A stretch of DNA of 64,000 bases. Origin: an uncultured Faecalicoccus sp. (GTDB lineage: Bacteria; Bacillota_I; Bacilli_A; Erysipelotrichales; Erysipelotrichaceae). Position numbers and translations under genes: made by a program. The stretch spans positions 2,827 through 66,826 of the forward strand of contig NZ_CALVGO010000001.1 in assembly GCF_944327125.1 (NCBI RefSeq), written 5' to 3'. Shown here piece after piece: positions 18,321-35,593 of this stretch (positions are counted from its first letter, which is position 1; every line of letters begins with the position of its first letter). A model generated the notes under the pieces. The model made no database searches and had not been told where the DNA came from. It saw only the letters and a list, made by a program, of their open reading frames with translations.

Positions 18321-18478
18321 CGGATGACGAATGTTAGAGAGAGTCTTTGGACCACCGAAGAATTTATTATTTCAGGTAAAAGGATAGCATTCTGACGAGC
18401 CTCTGGAGAGTTCCTTAAATGGACGCCGAAGGAGCAAGCCCTTAGGGGTGAAACTCTCAGGCAAAAGGACAGAGGATT
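18321..18478 (+). promoter_or_regulatory. tandem glycine riboswitch (two aptamers)
   Basis: Aptamer 2 cores: CTCTGGAGAG (18401-18410), GCCGAAGGAGCAA (18425-18437), CTCAGGCAAAAGGACAGAGG (18456-18475). Aptamer 1, more degenerate: AGAGAGAG, CACCGAAG, TTCAGGTAAAAGGATAG. Confidence 0.85.
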
Positions 18479-18510
18479 AGATAGTTTTACTATATTCTAA
18501 TTCCTCTTTT
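18471..18510 (+). terminator. riboswitch expression-platform hairpin (putative terminator)
   Basis: AGAGGATTAGA...TCTAATTCCTCT hairpin plus TTTT. Its 5-prime arm overlaps the 3-prime strand of aptamer-2 P1 (CAGAGG). Confidence 0.5.
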
Positions 18511-18531
18511 ATGATAAAGGAGGATTTTTTT

Positions 18532-19929
18532 ATGGACACTCTTTCCAATGTTTTGAGTCAGATCAATGATTTGGTCTGGGGATTGCCTTTGATTTGTTTA
18601 CTGTTGGGAACTGGCCTGTATTTTACCTTGCGGTTAGGCCTGTTACAGTTTCGCCGTCTTCCTTTGGCTTTTAAACTGATGTTTAAAAAAGAAGACCATA
18701 AAGAAGGCGATGTTTCCAGCTTTCAGGCCCTTTGTACCGCTTTATCCAGCACGATTGGAACCGGAAATATCGTAGGGGTAGCCACTGCCATTATTGCCGG
18801 AGGACCAGGTGCTTTATTCTGGATGTGGATTTCTGCCTTTTTAGGGATGGCCACAAAATATTCAGAAGGTCTTTTGGCAATCGTTTATCGGCAGCGGGAT
18901 GAAAAAGGACAGATGTCTGGCGGTCCAATGTATTATTTAGAAAAAGGGTTGAAACATAAAACTTTAGGAAAGATCTTAGCCCGCCTGTTTGCGGTATTTG
19001 GCGTAGGTGTGGCTTTGTTGGGGATTGGAACGTTTACCCAGGTTCGCTCGATTGCCGATGCGGCGCAGCTGACACTCAATATTCCCCCTCTGGTTACGGG
19101 AATCTTTCTTGTGGTGACTGTGGGCTTCATTACCATTGGTGGAATCAAGCGAATTGCTTCGGTTTCAGAAGTTATCGTTCCTTTTATGAGCGTTGCCTAT
19201 ATTGCCAGTGTTGTATTGATCATGATCACGCATTATCAAGCAATACCGGGAACTTTGGCTTTGGTTGTTCAATCGGCCTTTACGCCTTCGGCTGCTTTTG
19301 GCGGAAGTGTGGGTATCACGATGCAGATGGCGATGCGAAGCGGAATCAGCCGCGGAATTTTTAGTAATGAATCGGGATTGGGAAGTGCTCCGATTGCCGC
19401 AGCGGCCGCTAAGACCGATTCTTGTGTAGAACAAGGTTTAGTTTCTATGACGGGAACCTTTATAGATACGATCTGTGTTTGTACGATGACGGGGATGGCC
19501 ATCATCATTACCCAGTCATATTTGCTGGGCGTGGAAGGATCGGCTATGACGACCATCGCCTTTCAAAACGGATTTCCTATTGGAGAGATTGGCATCTATG
19601 TCGTGAATATTGGCTTGTTGTTCTTTGCGTTTACGACCATTATCGGTTGGAATTATTATGGGGAAAAGTGTATCCAGTATCTTCTGGGACAAAAAGCAAT
19701 CCTTCCTTATAAAATTCTTTTCATTGTCTTGATTGGAATCGGACCTTTTATGTCTTTGGATTTTGTCTTTACTTTAGCGGATATTGTTAATGGCTGTATG
19801 GCATTTCCTAACTTGATTGGTCTTGTGGCATTACGAAAAGTCGTTTACCAGGAAACGAAAGCTTATTTTATGAATTATCGCTGTGTGAAAGAAGCCCGAA
19901 AACAAGAGCTTGCTGCTAAATCGGCTTAA
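18532..19929 (+). CDS. sodium:alanine/glycine symporter (AGCS family)
   Basis: Polytopic protein with AGCS-family motifs GEVSSFQALCTALSSTIGTGNIVGVATAI and SNESGLGSAPIAAAAAKT. The ATG at 18532 lies 8 nt after AAGGAGG; the tracked start at 18511 contains that RBS. Confidence 0.88.
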   Translation: MDTLSNVLSQINDLVWGLPLICLLLGTGLYFTLRLGLLQFRRLPLAFKLMFKKEDHKEGDVSSFQALCTALSSTIGTGNIVGVATAIIAGGPGALFWMWISAFLGMATKYSEGLLAIVYRQRDEKGQMSGGPMYYLEKGLKHKTLGKILARLFAVFGVGVALLGIGTFTQVRSIADAAQLTLNIPPLVTGIFLVVTVGFITIGGIKRIASVSEVIVPFMSVAYIASVVLIMITHYQAIPGTLALVVQSAFTPSAAFGGSVGITMQMAMRSGISRGIFSNESGLGSAPIAAAAAKTDSCVEQGLVSMTGTFIDTICVCTMTGMAIIITQSYLLGVEGSAMTTIAFQNGFPIGEIGIYVVNIGLLFFAFTTIIGWNYYGEKCIQYLLGQKAILPYKILFIVLIGIGPFMSLDFVFTLADIVNGCMAFPNLIGLVALRKVVYQETKAYFMNYRCVKEARKQELAAKSA

Positions 19930-19990: not shown

Positions 19991-20003
19991 AAGGACGTAC
20001 AAA

Positions 20004-20112
20004 AAACTTCAGGGTCGGGTGAAATTCCCAATCGGCGGTCATACTCCGCGAGCCTTCGGGCAGGAATCGGTGCAATTCCGATAGCGACAGTTACAGTCTG
20101 GATGGAAGAAGG
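20004..20112 (+). promoter_or_regulatory. FMN riboswitch (RFN element)
   Basis: CTTCAGGGTCGGGTGAAATTCCCAATCGGCGGT ... CCGCGAGCC ... GGTGCAATTCCGATAGCGACAGT ... AGTCTGGATGGAAGAAGG matches the RFN core. Confidence 0.9.
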
Positions 20113-20148
20113 TTTTTTGAAATCCTTTTTTATCGTTTTTGTATCCTG

Positions 20149-20179
20149 AGAGGTTTTGTGACAAACCTCTTTTTCTTTT
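20149..20179 (+). terminator. FMN-riboswitch terminator hairpin
   Basis: AGAGGTTT-tgtgac-AAACCTCT perfect 8-bp stem followed by TTTTCTTTT. Confidence 0.75.
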
Positions 20180-20216
20180 GAAAAAGAGGGGGCTGATCTG
20201 TGAGGAGGTAATGAAT

Positions 20217-20831
20217 ATGTCAGCACAATCGACTGTCCAGTCAAAAACATCTCGTGTGCAATGGATCGCAAAGGTTTCGATTCTTTCGGCAGTTGCGTTT
20301 CTATTGATGCTCTTTGAGATCCCACTTCCGTTTTTTCCGCCTTTCTACGAACTTGGTTTTGATGAAGTAGCGGTCATGATTGGAGGATTTGCGATGGGAC
20401 CTCTGGCCGGGGCTTGCATTGAAACTTTAAAAATCGTTTTGAATTTATTGTTTCAAGGAACTGACACGGCTTGCGTGGGAGAAATTTCCAATCTTATTAT
20501 TGGTTTAGCTTTTGTGGTTCCTAGTTCCATCTACTACCAAAATCATAAGACGCGCAAAGGGGCTTTAATTTCCTTGATCATTGGAATTGTATCCTTGGCT
20601 GTAATTGGATCTTTGGCAAATTATTTTATCGCATTGCCGGCTTATTCTTATTTCTATGGCTTACCGATGGAAGCTATCATAAAAATGGGAACAACGCTGT
20701 TGCCGCTTGTTTCCAATACCTTTACTTTTGTCCTCTTTATGACATTGCCTTTCAATTTATTAAAAGGCTTGATTGTTGGAATTATCGTATTTATTTTATA
20801 CAAACGGATCTCACCTCTTCTGCATCGTTAA
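20217..20831 (+). CDS. ribU: riboflavin transporter, ECF S-component RibU type
   Basis: FMN riboswitch upstream. About 6 TM helices with ILSAVAFLLMLFEIPLPFFPPFYELGFDEVAVMIGGFAMGP. The ATG at 20217 is 8 nt from GAGGAGG. Confidence 0.85.
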   Translation: MSAQSTVQSKTSRVQWIAKVSILSAVAFLLMLFEIPLPFFPPFYELGFDEVAVMIGGFAMGPLAGACIETLKIVLNLLFQGTDTACVGEISNLIIGLAFVVPSSIYYQNHKTRKGALISLIIGIVSLAVIGSLANYFIALPAYSYFYGLPMEAIIKMGTTLLPLVSNTFTFVLFMTLPFNLLKGLIVGIIVFILYKRISPLLHR

Positions 20832-22532: not shown

Positions 22533-23278
22533 TTAATGTCTCCCTGACGAATGAAAAAGTAATAAGATAGAATTCCTCCGGCAATCGCTACATTCAGGCT
22601 TTCAAATGAGGCCATTTCAATTTTTATGGTTTGATGACAAAGCTCGATCAATTCCGGATGGACGCCTTGTCCTTCATTTCCTAACACAATACCATAGCTT
22701 TCGGGTACCTGGACGCGATCGAGGGGCACCGATTGACTGTGTAAACTTGTGGCATAGATATTCATTCCGTTGTTTTTGAAATTCGGAATGGTAAAGATCA
22801 AATCGGTATATATAACAGGTACATGAAACAAAGCTCCCTGGGATGATTGGATCGTTTTCGGATTGTAGATATCGGCGCAACCGGATGAGCAGTAGACGGC
22901 CTCGATTCCAAAGGCAAGAGCCGTTCTTATGATCGTACCTACGTTGCCTGGATCTTGTACATCATCCAGGAATAAAGCCCTGTGAATGGGATGGGATGTC
23001 CATTCCATTTTCTTGCACAGGCCGATGATTTTTGCCTGTGAATTTTGTACTGAAAGTTTCTGCAGGACCGGTTTGGTACAATAAGTCAAAGGTACATTCA
23101 AAGAAAGCTTTTCATCCTGCAAAATGAAAACTTCTTTTAAACATCCAGCTTCATACGCTTCATGGACAAGATGTTGTCCTTCGACAAGAAAGAGATTTGT
23201 TTTATCTCTTTCTTTTTTTTTGTGCAGCTTGGTTAGCTCACGAATGGTTTTATTTTGAGTAGATTCTATCAATTTCAT
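22520..23278 (-). CDS. TrmH/SpoU-family RNA 2-prime-O-methyltransferase
   Basis: C-terminal SPOUT motifs LDDVQDPGNVGTIIRTA, IVLGNEGQGV and SLNVAIAGGI. Confidence 0.85.
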   Translation of the reverse strand: MKLIESTQNKTIRELTKLHKKKERDKTNLFLVEGQHLVHEAYEAGCLKEVFILQDEKLSLNVPLTYCTKPVLQKLSVQNSQAKIIGLCKKMEWTSHPIHRALFLDDVQDPGNVGTIIRTALAFGIEAVYCSSGCADIYNPKTIQSSQGALFHVPVIYTDLIFTIPNFKNNGMNIYATSLHSQSVPLDRVQVPESYGIVLGNEGQGVHPELIELCHQTIKIEMASFESLNVAIAGGILSYYFFIRQGDIKCNR

Positions 23279-23829
23279 GGCTTTATTGTATCACGCTTAT
23301 GTAAAAACGCCAGTATATATAAAACCATGTTGACCAAACAGGAAAAGGCTGTTTCTGCACTGGATGTGATATGTCCGGGAAACAGTAAAAGAAAGGCACA
23401 GAACATAAAAACAAACAATAGGAAGCGTTCATATCGGTCAAGGTTTCCTTTCCAATAGAAATAATACAGCCATTCCATGATGAAACAAGTAACCGAAGCG
23501 ATGGCTATCCAGATATGCAGATCATTGATCCAGGAACTTTGATCCAAAGAATATGGAATGATGCAGGATAAGACCATGAGGATACAGATCAGTGTGTGAA
23601 AAAATCCTGGATAGGGGAAATTCGTTTTATCCCAGATAACCTTTGAAAGATAATAAAAGCCCCATGCACTGCTGATGGCCCAGAGAATCAAATAGATAGG
23701 ATGCCCCATTTGGTTTCCAATGTGACTTTGGTTATCAAAAAAAGGGTCGATCACAAAGAATGGATATAAGTTTAAACAGAGATTCAGAATCCAGACATGG
23801 ATCAATGATAAGTATTTTGTGTATCGCAT
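23275..23829 (-). CDS. hypothetical membrane protein (about 5 TM helices)
   Basis: Hydrophobic 184-aa ORF whose stop overlaps the methyltransferase start by 4 nt. Confidence 0.5.
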   Translation of the reverse strand: MRYTKYLSLIHVWILNLCLNLYPFFVIDPFFDNQSHIGNQMGHPIYLILWAISSAWGFYYLSKVIWDKTNFPYPGFFHTLICILMVLSCIIPYSLDQSSWINDLHIWIAIASVTCFIMEWLYYFYWKGNLDRYERFLLFVFMFCAFLLLFPGHITSSAETAFSCLVNMVLYILAFLHKRDTIKP

Positions 23830-23898: not shown

Positions 23899-24885
23899 GT
23901 GATTGATTTGAACGATTGGATCCGCGTTCTCTCTAAGAATCCATCTGTGCTGGAAACCATATTGAACGATCCAATGAAATTAGATCTGAGTGTATTTGAC
24001 AAGATGGCTCACGACGATTTCAGTCTTCGAAGTGCTCTGCACGATCCCAAACGAGGTATCATCCACTATTCGATTGAGGGACTGGTTAGTCTCGAAGATT
24101 TTTTGAATCAGGTAACTTTTGAAGATAGAGAAGGATATCTTTTTCTGGATCAACTTTTTGAGACAGCCATCGCGGTCAATCGAAACAAACCGGTTTTGTT
24201 TGATCCATCTTATGTGTTTGTATCTCCCTATGGCGACAAGTTCTATTTTCTTGTCGTTCCCATTATGCTGGAGGAATGGATGTTTCAAAAGGAACAGATC
24301 TCATCATGGGTCCAGTATCTTTCCAAACATTTCAAAACACATACGGCGTATGAAATCATCGGCTATATGCTGAGTCTTTCCCAAAGTGATGAATTTTCCT
24401 TACCCAATCTGATTTCCGGTTTGGTCAATTTAAAGGATCATTATTATCCGAAAAAAAGACATTTCTTTTCTATTCCAAAGAAAGAACGGTTTTATTTAAA
24501 AGAACCGGTGCACTCTCTTTACTATGATGCATACTCTTCGGCTTCCAAGGTAGTACATGAAGAAAATGGTACACAGGTCTTAGGTGAGCCTTTGGTAGGC
24601 AAAGCCTATTTGATCCAAGAAGATACCCAGGAGAAGTTCATGATCCAGTTTGAATCCACGGTTGTCGGCCGTACAGTATCTTGCGATATTCAGTTATTGG
24701 AAGATTCAATATCCTTAAAACATGCCGAAATACTTTATGAGAATCAACGATACTATATCAAAGATCTGAAAAGCCGAAACAAGACCTTTCTTAACGGAAA
24801 ACAGGTGATTCGAAAGATGCGTTTAAAAGAAGGAATGCGGATTCAATTTGGGAATATAAACTTCATTTTCCATGAAACTGGATGA
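23899..24885 (+). CDS. FHA-domain protein (unknown N-terminal domain plus C-terminal FHA); first gene of the T7SS-like operon
   Basis: C-terminal VVGRTVSCDIQLLEDSISLKHAEILYENQRYYIKDLKSRNKTFLNGKQV is a canonical FHA core. The start is uncertain: GTG 23899 or TTG 23908. Confidence 0.75.
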   Translation: MIDLNDWIRVLSKNPSVLETILNDPMKLDLSVFDKMAHDDFSLRSALHDPKRGIIHYSIEGLVSLEDFLNQVTFEDREGYLFLDQLFETAIAVNRNKPVLFDPSYVFVSPYGDKFYFLVVPIMLEEWMFQKEQISSWVQYLSKHFKTHTAYEIIGYMLSLSQSDEFSLPNLISGLVNLKDHYYPKKRHFFSIPKKERFYLKEPVHSLYYDAYSSASKVVHEENGTQVLGEPLVGKAYLIQEDTQEKFMIQFESTVVGRTVSCDIQLLEDSISLKHAEILYENQRYYIKDLKSRNKTFLNGKQVIRKMRLKEGMRIQFGNINFIFHETG

Positions 24886-26254
24886 TAGCCGATATCGAGT
24901 TGTGGAAAACTATCACATGTCATTCAATAGCCGCGTTGATCTCGTGGAAGATCAGTTAACAGGAAAGAGATATATCTCGAAGTCAATCGATTTAAACAAA
25001 AGTACACCTGTCTTGATTCATCAATTGAAAACAGAGATCCATATTCTTTCTTTGTTGAATGATGTGCACGTACCGCAGCTATCGGATGTGATACTTTCTC
25101 ATGACTCTATGAGCTTGATTGAAACAAAAATTGATGGAATACGCCTGGATCAAATCCAAAATCGATGGACAGTTCTCAGATATCGAAAAAGATGGGCGTT
25201 GGAATTGATGCACCTCTTGGAAACCCTTCACCAATTCGGTTTTCTTTATATCGATGTAAAAAAAGAAAATCTAATTGTATCGAAAAACCATCTCTTTCTC
25301 ATCGATTTCAACGCTTGTATTCCTATTCATTCTGTTCAGGCTTGTATGGCCTCTCCCTCAAATGAGGCTCCTGAATTGAAAACTAAAAGTAGAAAGGAGG
25401 TATACACAGATATTTATGCATTGGGATCGCTGATGACGAGTTTTTATCATTTTGGTTTTCTTAAAATATGGATTCGAAAATGTATGCGTGTAACACCGCA
25501 AAAGAGATATCCAAGTATCTCTAGGACTCGTTTCAGTTATCTGATGTTCCTTTATGTCCAAAGAATTTTGATGATCTGTGTTTTTATATTTCTGTCTGTT
25601 TTCTGGATCTTTCAAAATTCTTTGGCGTATGAAGGGACACTGATGGAAAAGTATCGGGAAGAGATCATGGAAATCACAGGTACAAGGCAGGAAAAAACAC
25701 AGATTGTTCTTCATGACTGGATCGTAAAAGGAAAACTTAAAAAAGGATCTTTTGACGATAATCAAACCGCAAAGTATTTTTTGAATCAAGCTTTATTGAC
25801 AAGAAATGTCGAAGTAATTCGATACATTGTGCAAAACATACCGAAATCTATCGTAAAAGAGATCTATGTTCCTTATCAAATGGCAAGGATGATATCAAGC
25901 CCGGACAAACCAATGTCGCAGAAACAGATTCTGAAACTTTTGCGTGCTATAGAAAAAGAAAAAGATCTTTTAACCCGTGTAGACAACCTTCAGCTCTTTG
26001 AAGAAATATTACTGGAAAAAGAAAGAGTCTTATCAACAGAAAATGTCCAGTATCTATCAACGATTCATCATAGATGGACCAACCAGCAAATGAAGGAAAA
26101 TCAGGAGATATTTTTAAAGTTGGCTTGTACTCATGGGGAATACTGTCTTTATCTGGAAACCAGGGGGTTCAAGAAACAGACGTTGCCAGATAACTATATA
26201 GAGATGTTTAAAGAGGATCAAACGTTCAAAAAAATCATGAAGATGATGGAATAG
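24872..26254 (+). CDS. membrane protein with a cytoplasmic Hanks-type kinase-like domain, one TM helix and an extracytoplasmic C-domain (EssB/YukC position and topology)
   Basis: Kinase subdomain motifs: K in RYISKSI, E in LKTEIHIL, YIDVKKENL (catalytic loop D-x-K-x-x-N), DFN (DFG-like), APE, DIYALGSL. There is no Gly-rich loop. TM helix at about 25532-25612. The start overlaps the previous stop by 14 nt. Confidence 0.7.
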   Translation: MKLDDSRYRVVENYHMSFNSRVDLVEDQLTGKRYISKSIDLNKSTPVLIHQLKTEIHILSLLNDVHVPQLSDVILSHDSMSLIETKIDGIRLDQIQNRWTVLRYRKRWALELMHLLETLHQFGFLYIDVKKENLIVSKNHLFLIDFNACIPIHSVQACMASPSNEAPELKTKSRKEVYTDIYALGSLMTSFYHFGFLKIWIRKCMRVTPQKRYPSISRTRFSYLMFLYVQRILMICVFIFLSVFWIFQNSLAYEGTLMEKYREEIMEITGTRQEKTQIVLHDWIVKGKLKKGSFDDNQTAKYFLNQALLTRNVEVIRYIVQNIPKSIVKEIYVPYQMARMISSPDKPMSQKQILKLLRAIEKEKDLLTRVDNLQLFEEILLEKERVLSTENVQYLSTIHHRWTNQQMKENQEIFLKLACTHGEYCLYLETRGFKKQTLPDNYIEMFKEDQTFKKIMKMME

Positions 26255-26263
26255 GAGGCGATT

Positions 26264-33561: not shown

Positions 33562-34440
33562 TTCTGTTAATTCTGGGTGATTTACAAGGTATTCTGGATC
33601 CGAGACACGTAAAGCATCAAAGATTTCCTGATCGTGGATCTCAAATCCATGTTTCTGGAGATAATAAATCAAACAGTTATTGGATATTTCCTGATTGGAA
33701 TTGCTGACGAGATCGGTTTTGATCTTATCAATGTTTTTGTCATAGTCTTTACTGATCAGAACTCCAACATAATATGCACCGCTGGATTCGTCTTCATCGG
33801 TCATGACTTCATCGATTACGCCTTCCTCTTTGGCAGAGTATAAAGAATTGATGACATAATCTGGGAGGGAATCTTCCAAACATGTCGAAACAACGATTTC
33901 TTCATTTTTAAATTTAGAATCTTCACTGGAATACTGATCCCATACCGTTTGGGCATCTGTCCCTTCCTGTAATGCCTTTAAAGCATTTTTGGCATCATCT
34001 TTGTTGTCGCACATCAGCACTTTGGCGATGGTAGGTTTATATTCTTTTTTGATCTCTTTTTTCTGGTCTTTGAAGTATTGATCCATCAGTTTTTCCTGTT
34101 GGATCATAGGGATGATGATGTTTTCAATATAATCATCTTTGTTTCCTTCTTCGCCTTTTTCATCGGATTCTTCATAAAGCTTGTTGGCTTCTTCCTGAAT
34201 CTTCTTGCCACGTCCGATCTCTGCATCTAACACAGCATTGGTAGCAAGCAGGATCGTATTGGAAGAACCGGAATATTTTTTAAGCAGATCGTATTCTTCG
34301 CCGCGGGTAAAGCTTTGATCTCCAACGGTGAATAAGACTTCATCTGCGTCTTTGATCTGTGTCGAAGACTGGGAACAGGCGCTTAGCAACAGCAAAGAAC
34401 TAAAGGCAAAACATAACGTTTTTTTCAAATTACTTTTCAT
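33547..34440 (-). CDS. PrsA-like foldase lipoprotein with a degenerate parvulin region
   Basis: The start at 34440 is 9 nt after GGAG. Signal peptide MKSNLKKTLCFAFSSLLLLSAC contains a lipobox. Paralogous to the upstream gene. Confidence 0.6.
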   Translation of the reverse strand: MKSNLKKTLCFAFSSLLLLSACSQSSTQIKDADEVLFTVGDQSFTRGEEYDLLKKYSGSSNTILLATNAVLDAEIGRGKKIQEEANKLYEESDEKGEEGNKDDYIENIIIPMIQQEKLMDQYFKDQKKEIKKEYKPTIAKVLMCDNKDDAKNALKALQEGTDAQTVWDQYSSEDSKFKNEEIVVSTCLEDSLPDYVINSLYSAKEEGVIDEVMTDEDESSGAYYVGVLISKDYDKNIDKIKTDLVSNSNQEISNNCLIYYLQKHGFEIHDQEIFDALRVSDPEYLVNHPELTEEEDQ

Positions 34441-35461
34441 TGTCTTCATCTCCTGTTCTAGAGGAAATATATTCATTGATTTTCTTTTCGGTTTCATCAT
34501 CTTTAAATTCGATGTCAAGATCTTTCGCATAAGCTTCTACGATTTTAACATCCAATCCTTTATTTGCGTTTAGAATGGCAGAAAGGACATTGTTGGATAC
34601 CGTTTCATTTTTTGAATTCCACATCTTTTTTAAATCGGTTTGATCAACGTGTACACGATATAAGTAGAACAGTCCAGTGGATGAATCTGTAACTTCGATC
34701 CAATCGCTGGTTTCCCCTTCTTGTAGTTTGGTAGCGGCATCGATCACAGCGGAGTTTAGTGTGGAACTGCTTGCGGCGTCGGTATCGATATAGCCATAGA
34801 AACCGTCATTGCTGGCCGTGGAAGTATCTTCGGAATATGCCGTAGCAGCATCGGCAAAGCTTTCCTTTTCCAAAGCAGAATCGATATTATCTTTTTTCTT
34901 CTGTTCATCTTCTGTTAAACTGTCCAGACTTTCCACCTGCATAGAGAGAATAGAAATCGTACGAGGTTTTTTCTCTTGCAGTGCTTTGGTTGTTTCATCG
35001 AAATGTTCTTCGATATAATCTCTTTGCATTTCTGTTTGTTTCACAGTCATTAAATAAAAATCATACAAATCGTCTGAATCAGTAAAACCGTAAGCGGCCA
35101 GTTCTTTTTGAACTTGCTGTTCCAGCTCCAAATCGGTCGTGGAAGACTGATTGGCTTCAAAAGCTTTCAAATATTCTTTTGCCTGTTTTTCGATTTCGTC
35201 AGTAGTTTCAATTGCCTGGTTTACAACGAGATTTCGGTAGGCGTTGTAAAGAATCTCGTTATCCGAATCTTTTGATTCCTCATAAATATCCTGGGCGGTT
35301 ATATTCGCCTCATCCATACTGGCAACAACCTGGTTGCCGTCGGAATCTGTCATCTTGGAAACATTGTATTTATTTTCATCGTATACAAAATAGCATACAA
35401 AAGAGATGATGATGATGGCAATTACGACCACAAACCAATTGTGTCTTAAGAAATCGCTCAT
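34430..35461 (-). CDS. membrane-anchored PrsA/PpiD-like chaperone (SurA-N-like region plus a degenerate parvulin-like region)
   Basis: N-terminal TM helix WFVVVIAIIIISFVCYFVY. DGFYGYID...GLFYLYRV stands in place of the parvulin GGDLGWF...GYHIIKV motifs. The start at 35461 follows GGAGG. Confidence 0.55.
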   Translation of the reverse strand: MSDFLRHNWFVVVIAIIIISFVCYFVYDENKYNVSKMTDSDGNQVVASMDEANITAQDIYEESKDSDNEILYNAYRNLVVNQAIETTDEIEKQAKEYLKAFEANQSSTTDLELEQQVQKELAAYGFTDSDDLYDFYLMTVKQTEMQRDYIEEHFDETTKALQEKKPRTISILSMQVESLDSLTEDEQKKKDNIDSALEKESFADAATAYSEDTSTASNDGFYGYIDTDAASSSTLNSAVIDAATKLQEGETSDWIEVTDSSTGLFYLYRVHVDQTDLKKMWNSKNETVSNNVLSAILNANKGLDVKIVEAYAKDLDIEFKDDETEKKINEYISSRTGDEDNEK

Positions 35462-35593
35462 GGTAGACCTCCTCATAAAAAATCTTTATCAATTATAGCG
35501 AATATCCTTATAAATTGCAATGAATGTTAAAATCGTATGAATTGAGATTTAAAAGCTTTTTTGTTACTATAGTACAGGAAAAGAGGAATGAAT

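What the first reader, a model, noticed from the sequence alone, without database searches (positions are those of the whole stretch)
24872..26254. EssB-position membrane protein retains nearly all Hanks kinase catalytic residues
Canonical EssB/YukC has a pseudokinase fold with the catalytic motifs lost. This protein has the same topology: a cytoplasmic N-domain, one TM helix at about 25532-25612 and an extracytoplasmic C-domain.

Motifs still readable in the N-domain:
- the beta3 Lys (RYISK)
- the alphaC Glu (LKTEIHIL)
- the catalytic loop Y-I-D-V-K-K-E-N-L (D, K and N conserved; about 25246-25272)
- D-F-N in place of DFG (25304-25312)
- A-P-E
- the subdomain IX Asp (DIYALGSL)
- the subdomain XI Arg (PQKRYPS)

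Only the Gly-rich loop is missing (YHMSFNS), and HRD has become YID. Two FHA domains, which read phosphothreonine, are encoded next door: the stand-alone protein and EssC. The locus could therefore be a secretion machine gated by real phosphorylation rather than by a dead kinase scaffold.
Basis: partly seen in the sequence, partly recalled or inferred. Interest (0 to 1): 0.7.

Follow-up and report, generated by a model that had tools for sequence, protein, structure and literature searches.

The report
Secretion-linked membrane kinase, probably active
A gut Faecalicoccus bacterium encodes, inside a compact type VII-like secretion operon, a membrane protein shaped like the dead-kinase scaffold EssB but with an almost complete kinase catalytic core, next to two phosphothreonine-reading FHA domains. 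This points to phosphorylation-controlled secretion, an idea already published for related systems in 2024.

Summary
ORF 24872-26254 (460 aa) scores 62.9 bits on Pfam Pkinase (cut-off 31.7). K37, E55, Y126-I-D128-V-K130-K-E-N133, D145-F-N147, APE, D180 and R212 align to the canonical catalytic positions. Only the Gly-rich loop is absent. These residues are near-invariant in 49 relatives of 20-41 % identity.

Both neighbouring FHA domains keep the GR/SxxH/N phosphothreonine motifs in 20-21 of 21 orthologues. The whole operon is syntenic across Erysipelotrichaceae.

The protein is not an EssB/YukC family member:
- It gives no PF10140 hit.
- hhalign against an EssB profile gives probability 1.4 %.
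- The C-domain fold does not match.
- Its closest solved relatives are PknB/Stk1/StkP.

Garrett, Higginson & Palmer (2024) described EssB-topology kinases (TsxD) with intact active sites, DUF6382-FHA proteins and pThr-competent FHA-ATPases in T7SSc/d/e/j, and proposed phospho-regulation.

This locus differs from those subtypes:
- It has no PPM phosphatase.
- Its ATPase is 1148 aa with a single Walker A.
- Its D1 domain is an outlier.
- Its kinase has a DFN motif, no Gly loop and a truncated C-lobe.

A new lead is an invariant Thr (T225) in the FHA protein, 32 residues before GR, that is shared with TseJ/TsfJ/TsjJ. Catalysis is untested.

The parts
23275..23829 (-). 184-aa polytopic membrane protein, divergently transcribed. 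It is always adjacent to the operon. Whether it belongs to the system is uncertain.
   Evidence: Syntenic in 20 loci. A 192-204 aa counterpart sits in the distant loci L026-L028. No Pfam or NCBIfam hit.
23899..24885 (+). [quoted passage not shown] FHA motifs: GR 24667-72, SLKH 24712-23, SRNKT 24772-86.
   Evidence: FHA E 8e-21; DUF6382 sub-threshold in this protein, found in 13/15 orthologues. pThr motifs conserved 21/21 and T225 21/21. Its end overlaps the kinase start by 14 nt.
24872..26254 (+). The finding: a bitopic Hanks-type Ser/Thr kinase-like protein (TsxD-class). Kinase domain aa 1-215 (24872-25516), TM aa 221-247 (25532-25612), extracytoplasmic helical-repeat domain aa 250-460 (25619-26251).
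   Evidence: Identical to WP_297236484.1, 'hypothetical protein [uncultured Faecalicoccus sp.]'.
25247..25312 (+). Catalytic loop Y126-I-D128-V-K130-K-E-N133 through the Mg-binding D145-F-N147.
   Evidence: Aligned to HRDLKPEN and DFG of MELK, PknG and Stk1. Family conservation: D128 49/49, K130 48/49, N133 47/49, D145 49/49, N147 46/49.
26264..28033 (+). [quoted passage not shown] Same topology as TsdI/TseI but about three times shorter.
   Evidence: Sequence inspection. Conserved position in most loci. No family hit. TsxI description.
28005..31451 (+). EssC/TsxC-like ATPase, 1148 aa. FHA motifs: GR 28251-56, SKEH 28296-307, SRNG 28344-55. Two TM helices at 28617-28775. ATPase D1 carries the only Walker A (29688-29711). 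The last 385 aa are a divergent tail.
31444..31680 (+). 78-aa protein in the position and of the size of EsaB/YukD/TsxB.
   Evidence: Conserved in 17 loci. No Pfam hit. Assignment is by position and size only.
31695..32293 (+). Two non-identical WXG100 genes (31695-31991 and 32003-32293).
   Evidence: PF06013 E 4e-13 and 1.5e-8.
32290..33553 (+). A 57-aa helical ORF (32290-32463), a 269-aa protein (32453-33262) and a DUF4176 protein (33269-33553). Probably a conserved substrate with partner proteins. A bidirectional terminator lies at 33538-33562.

Best explanation
The gene encodes a T7SS-dedicated, single-pass membrane Ser/Thr kinase of the Hanks/PknB type. It is the counterpart of the TsxD kinases of T7SSc/d/e/j.

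Architecture: a minimal cytoplasmic kinase domain (aa 1-215), a TM helix, and an extracytoplasmic helical-repeat domain (aa 250-460).

Shown:
- kinase-family membership
- the canonical placement and family-wide conservation of the catalytic Lys, Glu, Asp-x-Lys-x-x-Asn, Mg-binding Asp, P+1 Ser/APE and the whole regulatory spine
- strict co-inheritance and translational coupling with a DUF6382-FHA protein and an FHA-bearing EssC-like ATPase, both of whose FHA domains keep the phosphothreonine pocket

Inferred:
- The kinase is catalytically competent. It is a non-RD kinase, so it probably does not depend on activation-loop phosphorylation.
- It is controlled through its outside domain or by oligomerisation.
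- It phosphorylates a threonine that the FHA domains then bind, switching assembly or activity of the secretion ATPase.
- The best candidate acceptor is T225 of the FHA protein (T-Q-V-L-G, Leu at +3). It is invariant in a variable linker and sits 32 residues before the GR motif, as in TseJ/TsfJ/TsjJ.
- Dephosphorylation would have to come from a phosphatase encoded elsewhere.
For: Kinase identity and catalytic core:
- Pkinase 62.9 bits against GA 31.7.
- Residue-by-residue alignment to MELK, PknG and Stk1.
- AF2 pLDDT 94.8, and the Foldseek top 50 are all true kinases.
- In 49 relatives at 20-41 % identity: K37 45/48, E55 48/48, D128 49/49, K130 48/49, N133 47/49, D145 49/49, D180 49/49. Regulatory-spine residues L59, L70, Y126 and F146 are conserved.
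- D-x-K-x-x-N together with the P+1 Ser is the Ser/Thr-kinase signature (established knowledge).

FHA domains:
- GR/SxxH/N motifs conserved 20-21/21 in both FHA domains.
- Garrett's Table S1 shows these motifs are kept only in T7SS subtypes that have a kinase.

Genomic linkage:
- Synteny in 18 genome loci, further metagenome loci, and distant members at 20-25 % identity.
- 14-nt overlap between the FHA gene and the kinase gene.

Candidate acceptor:
- T225 invariant 21/21, context T-x-[LIV]-[LI]-G.
- Same motif and spacing in TseJ, TsfJ and TsjJ.

Precedents:
- The T6SS PpkA-Fha pathway, cited.
- Esr kinase acting on pT152 of an FHA protein that controls Esx.
Against: - No family member has a GxGxxG loop.
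- The VAIK Ala is I/V/F/L in 48/48 members. CK2 tolerates Val there, but the pocket must be atypical.
- The alphaG/GHI region used for substrate docking is deleted.
- No PP2C/PPM phosphatase is present in the operon, the window or 22 related loci, unlike T7SSc/e/f/j.
- In T7SSb the FHA-pseudokinase contact is phospho-independent.
- The T225 motif also occurs in T7SSf, which has no locus kinase. It may simply be a structural strand of the FHA fold.
- No biochemical data exist for any TsxD kinase in the searched literature.
Confidence: 0.6

Rival explanations
1. It is a scaffold rather than an enzyme. The kinase-fold domain binds nucleotide at most, or nothing, and works like EssB/YukC as an assembly hub that the FHA domains contact without phosphorylation. 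The conserved 'catalytic' residues are kept for fold stability or for a nucleotide-dependent conformational switch.
For: - No Gly-rich loop in any member.
- A bulky residue at the adenine-contacting VAIK Ala position. YukC fails to bind ATP because of a bulky Phe in the cleft.
- Truncated C-lobe.
- No cognate phosphatase.
- Same topology, size and gene position as EssB, whose pseudokinase dimer binds the EssC/YukB FHA domain.
Against: - Pseudokinase scaffolds lose the HRD Asp, the catalytic Lys/Asn and the DFG Asp. EssB has lost all three motifs.
- Here all of these are 96-100 % conserved over 20-41 % identity.
- The FHA pThr pockets are also intact, which Garrett's Table S1 links to the presence of a kinase and not to EssB-type systems (0 % GR and SxxH in TsbC).
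- Most related short membrane kinases also lack GxGxxG yet keep [HY]xDxKxxN and DFG.
Confidence: 0.25
2. It is a true EssB/YukC orthologue, an ancestral-like EssB that never lost catalysis, rather than an independently recruited PknB-type kinase.
For: - The bitopic layout is identical: about 215 aa of (pseudo)kinase, a TM helix, and about 210 aa of helical ectodomain, 460 aa in total against 444-451 aa.
- It sits next to an FHA-bearing EssC-like ATPase.
- The hhalign register places YIDVKKENL on EssB YTFVLAPDEL, which is the known structural equivalence.
- TsxD models superpose on TraF/YukC-type bitopic dimers.
Against: - No PF10140 hit.
- hhalign probability 1.4 %, E 0.036, and nothing aligns in the C-domain.
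- The best PDB fold match for the C-domain is E 0.17, to designed helical repeats, not 2YNQ or 6Z0F.
- The profile's best PDB hits are Stk1 and StkP.
- No EsaA or EssA partners are present in the operon.
- Garrett et al. also found no sequence identity between TscD and EssB.
Confidence: 0.12
3. It is a kinase-fold enzyme with a different chemistry or substrate (AMPylation as in SelO, glutamylation as in SidJ, or a small-molecule/lipid kinase), or a housekeeping kinase that merely neighbours the T7SS genes.
For: The nucleotide pocket is atypical: no Gly loop, Ile at the VAIK Ala position, and DFN. NCBIfam gives weak sub-threshold hits to LanL/LanKC and Bud32 kinase domains.
Against: - The D-x-K-x-x-N catalytic loop, the P+1 Ser161 and APE are typical of protein Ser/Thr kinases.
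- The best relatives are PknB, StkP and the CAMK group.
- The gene is never seen outside the FHA-kinase-TsxI-like-ATPase module in the 25+ loci examined, and it overlaps the FHA gene.
Confidence: 0.05

Closest known systems
TsxD membrane Ser/Thr kinases (TscD, TsdD, TseD, TsjD) of T7SSc/d/e/j; Garrett, Higginson & Palmer 2024, Microlife (PMC11217815)
   Same: - A single-pass membrane kinase with a cytoplasmic N-terminal kinase domain, a conserved active site and a helical ectodomain.
- Encoded inside a T7SS cluster.
- Accompanied by a DUF6382+FHA protein (TsxJ), by an FHA-ATPase with intact GR/SxxH/NG motifs, by two WXG100 genes and by a small TsxB-like protein, as in T7SSe.
- Phospho-regulation is proposed on the same logic.
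   Different: - No PPM phosphatase (TsxF) in the locus.
- The TsxI-like protein is 589 aa rather than about 1650 aa.
- The ATPase is 1148 aa with one Walker A, against 1293-1572 aa with four NTPase domains.
- ATPase D1 is only 41-48 % identical to every b-j representative, while those are 52-75 % identical to each other (OCR-derived sequences).
- The kinase lacks the Gly-rich loop, has DFN, and lacks the alphaG region.
- The host lineage is Erysipelotrichaceae, which is not named in the paper or in its held supplements.
EssB/YukC pseudokinase of T7SSb (PDB 4ANN, 2YNQ, 6Z0F, 9QKS) and its T4SS homologue TraF
   Same: Bitopic topology, overall length, a kinase-type fold in the cytoplasmic domain, a helical ectodomain, and an adjacent FHA-bearing ATPase.
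   Different: - EssB has lost VAIK, HRD and DFG (LDMR / YTFVLAPD / TRG) and does not bind ATP. Here all three motifs are intact.
- There is no detectable sequence or ectodomain-fold relationship.
- The FHA domains of T7SSb EssC lack the pThr pocket.
PASTA kinases PknB / Stk1 / StkP (PDB 4EQM, 9RUK, 5U94)
   Same: These are the closest solved sequences and folds for the kinase domain. All catalytic and spine residues are shared.
   Different: - They carry a canonical GxGxxG, HRD (RD type), DFG, a longer activation loop, a full C-lobe with alphaG, and extracellular PASTA repeats.
- They are housekeeping kinases, paired with a PP2C phosphatase.
T6SS threonine-phosphorylation pathway (PpkA-Fha1-PppA in P. 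aeruginosa; PpkA-TssL-Fha in A. tumefaciens)
   Same: A membrane Hanks kinase together with an FHA protein gates assembly of a secretion machine post-translationally. It is cited as the analogy.
   Different: The secretion machinery is unrelated, the hosts are diderm, and a dedicated phosphatase is present. It is a functional analogue only.
Esr kinase/FHA threat-sensing pathway linked to Esx in Actinomycetales (2026 preprint, PMC13622651)
   Same: A Ser/Thr kinase phosphorylates a Thr in the disordered region of an FHA protein (EsrG1 T152), and this controls the Esx/T7SS response. FHA output proteins are encoded within esx operons.
   Different: It belongs to Actinomycetota and includes MoxR/vWA/beta-propeller sensor modules. 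The output shown is mainly transcriptional.

Membership tests
Hanks-type (eukaryotic-like) Ser/Thr protein kinases, Pfam PF00069 | Significant match to the Pkinase profile above the curated threshold | tested here: met
   62.9 bits against GA 31.7, E 4e-17. Family profile against Stk1 E 3.5e-28.
Hanks-type (eukaryotic-like) Ser/Thr protein kinases, Pfam PF00069 | beta3 Lys, alphaC Glu, catalytic D-x-K-x-x-N, Mg-binding Asp of DFG, APE, and the subdomain IX Asp and XI Arg at aligned positions | tested here: met
   Alignments. Family conservation 82-100 %.
Hanks-type (eukaryotic-like) Ser/Thr protein kinases, Pfam PF00069 | Gly-rich loop GxGxxG over the phosphates | tested here: not met
   HMSFNS in the window. 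Absent in all 49 relatives. Also absent in 85 of 92 more distant short membrane kinases.
Hanks-type (eukaryotic-like) Ser/Thr protein kinases, Pfam PF00069 | Complete C-lobe (alphaF-alphaG-alphaH-alphaI) | tested here: not met
   The Pkinase match stops at profile position 189/263. Stk1 residues 206-242 have no counterpart. The model shows only one short helix between alphaF and the TM helix.
Hanks-type (eukaryotic-like) Ser/Thr protein kinases, Pfam PF00069 | ATP binding and phosphotransfer activity | not testable with these tools
   Requires biochemistry. Model coordinates could not be inspected.
EssB/YukC (Pfam PF10140, T7SSb core pseudokinase) | Sequence match to the YukC/EssB family | tested here: not met
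   No PF10140 hit at E<0.1. hhalign of the family against an 11-member EssB alignment: probability 1.4 %, E 0.036.
EssB/YukC (Pfam PF10140, T7SSb core pseudokinase) | Degenerate catalytic motifs (pseudokinase) | tested here: not met
   All three motifs are intact here. EssB has LDMR / YTFVLAPD / TRG.
EssB/YukC (Pfam PF10140, T7SSb core pseudokinase) | Bitopic N-in topology: kinase-fold domain, one TM helix, helical ectodomain | tested here: met
EssB/YukC (Pfam PF10140, T7SSb core pseudokinase) | Ectodomain fold like EssB-C (2YNQ) or YukC (6Z0F) | tested here: not met
   C-domain model pLDDT 94.9. Best PDB Foldseek E 0.17, to designed helical repeats and TPR. No EssB or YukC in the top 50.
EssB/YukC (Pfam PF10140, T7SSb core pseudokinase) | Co-occurrence with the T7SSb partners EsaA and EssA | tested here: not met
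   No such families among the operon proteins. The rest of the genome was not available.
TsxD kinase of kinase-bearing T7SS variants (T7SSc/d/e/j, Garrett 2024) | Membrane-bound Ser/Thr kinase with a conserved active site, encoded in a cluster with a TsxC ATPase and WXG100 | tested here: met
TsxD kinase of kinase-bearing T7SS variants (T7SSc/d/e/j, Garrett 2024) | The ATPase FHA domain keeps the GR, SxxH and NG motifs | tested here: met
   GR 19/20, SxxH 20/20, S-x-N-G 20/20. Compare Table S1.
TsxD kinase of kinase-bearing T7SS variants (T7SSc/d/e/j, Garrett 2024) | TsxJ component (DUF6382 + FHA) as in T7SSe/f/j | tested here: met
   FHA E 8e-21. DUF6382 in 13/15 orthologues, best E 2e-5; sub-threshold in the window protein.
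TsxD kinase of kinase-bearing T7SS variants (T7SSc/d/e/j, Garrett 2024) | PPM/PP2C phosphatase TsxF in the cluster (T7SSc, e, j) | tested here: not met
   No PPM family hit among the operon proteins. A motif scan of the window and 22 loci was negative (crude).
TsxD kinase of kinase-bearing T7SS variants (T7SSc/d/e/j, Garrett 2024) | TsxC ATPase of 1293-1572 aa with four NTPase domains, clustering with one described subtype | tested here: not met
   - 1148 aa, with 1048-1147 aa in the orthologues recovered intact.
- One Walker A.
- The 385-aa tail has no PDB or D1 similarity.
- D1 is 41-48 % identical to all b-j representatives, which are 52-75 % identical among themselves.
- The comparison used OCR-derived sequences, one per subtype, so the phylogenetic placement is provisional.
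TsxD kinase of kinase-bearing T7SS variants (T7SSc/d/e/j, Garrett 2024) | Direct sequence relationship of the kinase to TseD/TsjD | not tested
Only accession numbers of TsxC proteins are held.

The most novel reading that the evidence does not exclude
The Erysipelotrichaceae locus is an eleventh, minimal T7SS subtype. It has a one-Walker-A ATPase, a short TsxI-like protein and no dedicated phosphatase.

In this reading, a Gly-loop-less 'DFN' kinase phosphorylates the conserved Thr(-32) motif of the DUF6382-FHA protein. That motif would act as a GarA/OdhI-like phospho-switch whose acceptor is shared with TseJ/TsfJ/TsjJ.

The DUF6382 domain, rather than the kinase, would be the true EssB-N-like pseudokinase module. 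EssB-type systems would then derive from a kinase-plus-FHA circuit.
Probability: 0.2. Interest if true: 0.6.

Novelty: new variant of a known kind. Interest (0 to 1): 0.4.

Why it matters
T7SSb biology has an unexplained feature: a dead kinase (EssB) binds FHA domains that no longer read phosphothreonine. Systems in which both the kinase and the FHA pockets are intact show what that circuit probably looked like when it was live, and they offer a route to testing post-translational gating of type VII secretion in Bacillota.

This version is compact, at about 10 genes. It is chromosomal and conserved in cultivable gut commensals, including Faecalicoccus pleomorphus DSM 20574, Faecalitalea cylindroides, Catenisphaera and Holdemanella. 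It also supplies a precise candidate phospho-site, T225 of the FHA protein.

The concept was published in 2024, so the added value is a new lineage or variant and a sharper, testable mechanism rather than a new principle.

Tried and rejected
1. EssB membership. Pfam gives no YukC hit. I rebuilt S. aureus EssB from memory, validated it against 4ANN, collected PF10140 proteins and ran hhalign. The result was probability 1.4 %, so membership is rejected at the sequence level.
2. Ectodomain homology to EssB-C/YukC. A separate AF2 model (pLDDT 94.9) searched against the PDB found only generic helical repeats at E >= 0.17.
3. Full-length Foldseek. The output is swamped by more than 2000 true kinases, so the rank of EssB could not be seen.
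4. Phosphatase search. There are no PPM hits among the operon proteins, and a PP2C motif scan of the window and 22 loci was negative. The regex is crude and the rest of the genome was not available.
5. ATPase C-terminal 385 aa. There is no PDB sequence hit and no hhalign similarity to its own D1.
6. DUF6382 as a pseudokinase. hhalign against EssB is collinear but has probability 0.13 %. The PDB profile search is empty. A further homologue search returned only close relatives. This remains an untested lead.
7. Assignment to a published subtype. Garrett's supplements hold only accession numbers and OCR'd alignments. No Erysipelotrichaceae genus names were found in them. The D1 comparison was done on the OCR text.
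8. A genome scan with the 43-sequence alignment failed for lack of a conserved stretch. It succeeded with a 15-sequence alignment.
9. P0064-type short kinases. The contig was too short to judge the context.


Full report
**What is there**

The ORF at 24872-26254 (+) encodes 460 aa. It sits in a tightly packed plus-strand operon, 23899-33553, that ends at a bidirectional terminator at 33538-33562. The operon genes, in order:
- a DUF6382+FHA protein (23899-24885), whose end overlaps the kinase start by 14 nt
- the kinase-like protein
- an EssC-like FHA+FtsK ATPase (28005-31451)
- a 78-aa protein of YukD size
- two WXG100 genes
- a 57-aa ORF
- a 269-aa protein
- a DUF4176 protein

The kinase protein is identical to WP_297236484.1. 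RefSeq annotates it as 'hypothetical protein' of an uncultured Faecalicoccus sp..

**Checking the observation**

The protein is a bona fide Pkinase match: 62.9 bits against a gathering score of 31.7, E 4e-17. There is no YukC/EssB hit.

| Residue(s) | Canonical position |
|---|---|
| K37 | beta3 Lys |
| E55 | alphaC Glu |
| Y126-I-D128-V-K130-K-E-N133 | catalytic loop |
| D145-F-N147 | DFG |
| S161 and A166-P-E168 | P+1/APE |
| D180 | subdomain IX |
| R212 | subdomain XI |

- All coordinates were verified.
- The Gly-loop equivalent is HMSFNS.
- An AF2 model built on 43 relatives has pLDDT 94.8. It shows a kinase N-lobe, a short C-lobe, one long TM helix (216-251) and an all-helical C-domain.
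- The 50 best PDB fold matches are all true kinases, including PknG, CaMKII, PknB and PKA.

**Beyond one sequence**

A search of 1.8 billion representative proteins found about 45 full-length relatives of 440-470 aa at 20-41 % identity.

| Position | Conservation |
|---|---|
| K37 | 45/48 (3 Arg) |
| E55 | 48/48 |
| Y126 | 47/49 |
| D128 | 49/49 |
| K130 | 48/49 |
| N133 | 47/49 |
| D145 | 49/49 |
| F146 | 48/49 |
| N147 | 46/49 |
| D180 | 49/49 |
| R212 | 40/49 |

- The regulatory-spine residues L59, L70, Y126, F146 and D180 are likewise conserved. This is the pattern of an enzyme, not of a decayed pseudokinase.
- 'YID' is unremarkable. Tyr occupies the His position in AGC kinases (YRD in PKA; established knowledge). 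Ile in place of Arg makes this a non-RD kinase.
- Three features argue for caution:
  - No member has a GxGxxG loop.
  - The adenine-contacting Ala of VAIK is always I/V/F/L. CK2 has Val there, so this is not disqualifying.
  - About 38 residues of the alphaG region are missing.
- Most of the next 92 more distant short membrane kinases also lack GxGxxG while keeping [HY]xDxKxxN and DFG. The Gly-less state is therefore a clade trait under continued selection for the catalytic loop.

**Context**

- A scan of species-representative genomes returned 18 loci. Most are labelled Erysipelotrichaceae: Faecalicoccus, Faecalitalea, Holdemanella, Catenisphaera, Absicoccus, Floccifex and an Erysipelothrix-labelled MAG. 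Three are labelled only Bacillota or Firmicutes, and two are bins labelled Bacteroidaceae and Segatella.
- In every locus the same module is present in the same order, including the divergent 184-aa membrane protein upstream and two minus-strand genes downstream.
- Distant family members at 20-25 % identity sit in the same FHA-kinase-~600 aa-ATPase-WXG100-DUF4176 arrangement.
- Both FHA domains keep the phosphothreonine-binding residues in all orthologues:
  - FHA protein: GR 21/21, S272 and H275 21/21, S-x-N 21/21
  - ATPase: GR 19/20, SxxH 20/20, S-x-N-G 20/20

**Is it EssB?**

Only by position and topology.
- Pfam finds no YukC match.
- I validated a recalled S. aureus EssB sequence against PDB 4ANN, collected PF10140 proteins and compared profiles. 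hhalign gives probability 1.4 %, E 0.036. The register does match the published structural equivalence, YIDVKKENL against YTFVLAPDEL.
- The ectodomain, modelled separately at pLDDT 94.9, is a helical repeat with no significant PDB match. The best hit is E 0.17, and neither EssB-C nor YukC is listed.
- The sequence affinity of the kinase domain is to PknB, Stk1 and StkP.

**What is already known**

Garrett, Higginson & Palmer (2024) defined T7SSc-j. They reported the following:
- membrane Ser/Thr kinases (TscD, TsdD, TseD, TsjD) with 'similar topology to EssB' but a conserved active site
- TsxJ proteins (DUF6382+FHA)
- ATPase FHA domains that keep GR/SxxH/NG only in subtypes that have a kinase (Table S1)
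- PPM phosphatases

They explicitly proposed phospho-regulation by analogy with the T6SS. A 2026 paper notes that TsxD models resemble the bitopic EssB/TraF arrangement. A 2026 preprint shows experimentally that an Esx-linked kinase phosphorylates T152 of an FHA protein in Schaalia.

**How this locus differs**

It resembles T7SSe in having two WXG100 genes, a TsxB-like protein, TsxJ, TsxD and an FHA-bearing TsxC. The differences are:
- It has no PPM phosphatase. There is no Pfam or NCBIfam hit, and a crude PP2C motif scan of the window and 22 loci was negative.
- The TsxI-like protein is 589 aa rather than about 1650 aa.
- The ATPase is 1148 aa, and 1048-1147 aa in the orthologues recovered intact. 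It has a single Walker A, and its 385-aa tail matches neither EssC D2/D3 in the PDB nor its own D1. All published TsxC proteins are 1293-1572 aa with four NTPase domains.
- Its D1 domain is 41-48 % identical to each T7SSb-j representative, while those are 52-75 % identical to one another, and it is 28 % identical to EccC. These sequences were taken from OCR text, one per subtype, so the result is provisional.
- No Erysipelotrichaceae genus is named in the paper or in its held supplements, and no paper in the library links that family with T7SS.

I therefore rate it a new variant of a known kind.

**Mechanism proposed**

- Shown: a kinase-family protein with a conserved catalytic core, genetically locked to two pThr-competent FHA domains and a T7SS ATPase.
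- Inferred:
  - It is an active non-RD Ser/Thr kinase.
  - Its ectodomain or oligomeric state controls activity.
  - It creates a pThr that recruits or releases FHA domains to switch the ATPase.
- Candidate acceptor: T225 of the FHA protein.
  - It is invariant (21/21) in an otherwise variable linker, in the context T-x-[LIV]-[LI]-G. The Leu/Ile at +3 is a common FHA preference.
  - The same motif lies 32, 32 and 30 residues before the GR motif in TseJ (GTTVLA), TsfJ (ETELL) and TsjJ (STQLI) in Garrett's Fig. S4. In the window the distance is 32.
  - This suggests either a GarA/OdhI-like cis switch or a conserved structural strand.
  - T7SSf has the motif without a locus kinase, which is a caveat.

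**Confidence**

- That this is a T7SS-dedicated TsxD-class kinase-fold protein: about 0.95.
- That it is catalytically active and gates secretion through FHA-pThr binding: about 0.6.
- The main rival, a nucleotide-binding or inert scaffold acting like EssB: about 0.25.
- Direct EssB orthology: about 0.12. This is not exclusive of activity.

Noticed in passing
window 28005-31451: - The EssC-like ATPase is unusually short, at 1148 aa. It has one recognisable FHA domain, two TM helices and a single Walker A (29688-29711).
- Its last 385 aa (30294-31448) match nothing in the PDB by profile and do not resemble its own D1 domain.
- Orthologues recovered intact are 1048-1147 aa.
- Published T7SS ATPases are 1293-1572 aa with four NTPase domains.
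   Followed up: partly
window 29589-30293 (ATPase D1): D1 is 41-48 % identical to every T7SSb-j representative, whereas those are 52-75 % identical to each other. The representative sequences were copied from OCR text of Garrett 2024 Fig. S2. This suggests a separate T7SS branch in Erysipelotrichaceae.
   Followed up: partly
window 24562-24585 (FHA protein aa 222-229, T225 at 24571-24573): A Thr is invariant (21/21) in a variable linker, in the motif T-x-[LIV]-[LI]-G, 32 residues before the FHA GR motif. The same motif and spacing occur in TseJ, TsfJ and TsjJ. It is a candidate phospho-acceptor or cis FHA ligand.
   Followed up: partly
window 23899-24543 (DUF6382 domain of the FHA protein): - hhalign aligns this domain collinearly over 141 columns with the EssB pseudokinase domain ('NKPVLFDPSYVFVS' against 'RYTFVLAPDELFFT'), but the match is not significant (probability 0.13 %).
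- Garrett's Supplementary Data 3 lists a Foldseek hit to a 'protein kinase domain-containing protein' for TsfJ.
- DUF6382 might be a pseudokinase-like fold.
   Followed up: partly
window 24959-24961 (kinase T30) and 24950-24967: The family-specific motif D27-Q28-x-T30-G31-K in the beta2-beta3 turn is nearly invariant (T30 21/21). Ordinary kinases show no conservation at this place. It might compensate for the missing Gly loop or serve as a docking or phospho-site.
   Followed up: no
window 26264-28033: [quoted passage not shown] It has the same topology as the Ig-like TsdI/TseI proteins but a third of their size.
   Followed up: partly
window 32290-33553: A trio of genes is conserved in all related loci: a 57-aa helical ORF overlapping both of its neighbours, a 269-aa protein with a helical N-part and a Gly/Ala/Ser-rich C-half, and a DUF4176 protein. 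This is probably a core substrate with partner proteins.
   Followed up: partly
window 23275-23829 (-): A 184-aa polytopic membrane protein with no family hit is always divergently adjacent to the operon. It is also present as a 192-204 aa protein in distant loci L026-L028. It is possibly an unrecognised component.
   Followed up: no
window 33547-35476 (-): A lipoprotein-like 327-aa protein and a PrsA-like PPIase (348 aa, Rotamase domain) are conserved immediately downstream of the operon, on the opposite strand, in most of the related loci that extend that far.
   Followed up: no
window 18393-18482 and 20001-20117: A glycine riboswitch lies upstream of a Na+/alanine symporter (18511-19929). 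An FMN riboswitch lies upstream of an ECF-transporter S component (20139-20831). Both are ordinary arrangements.
   Followed up: no
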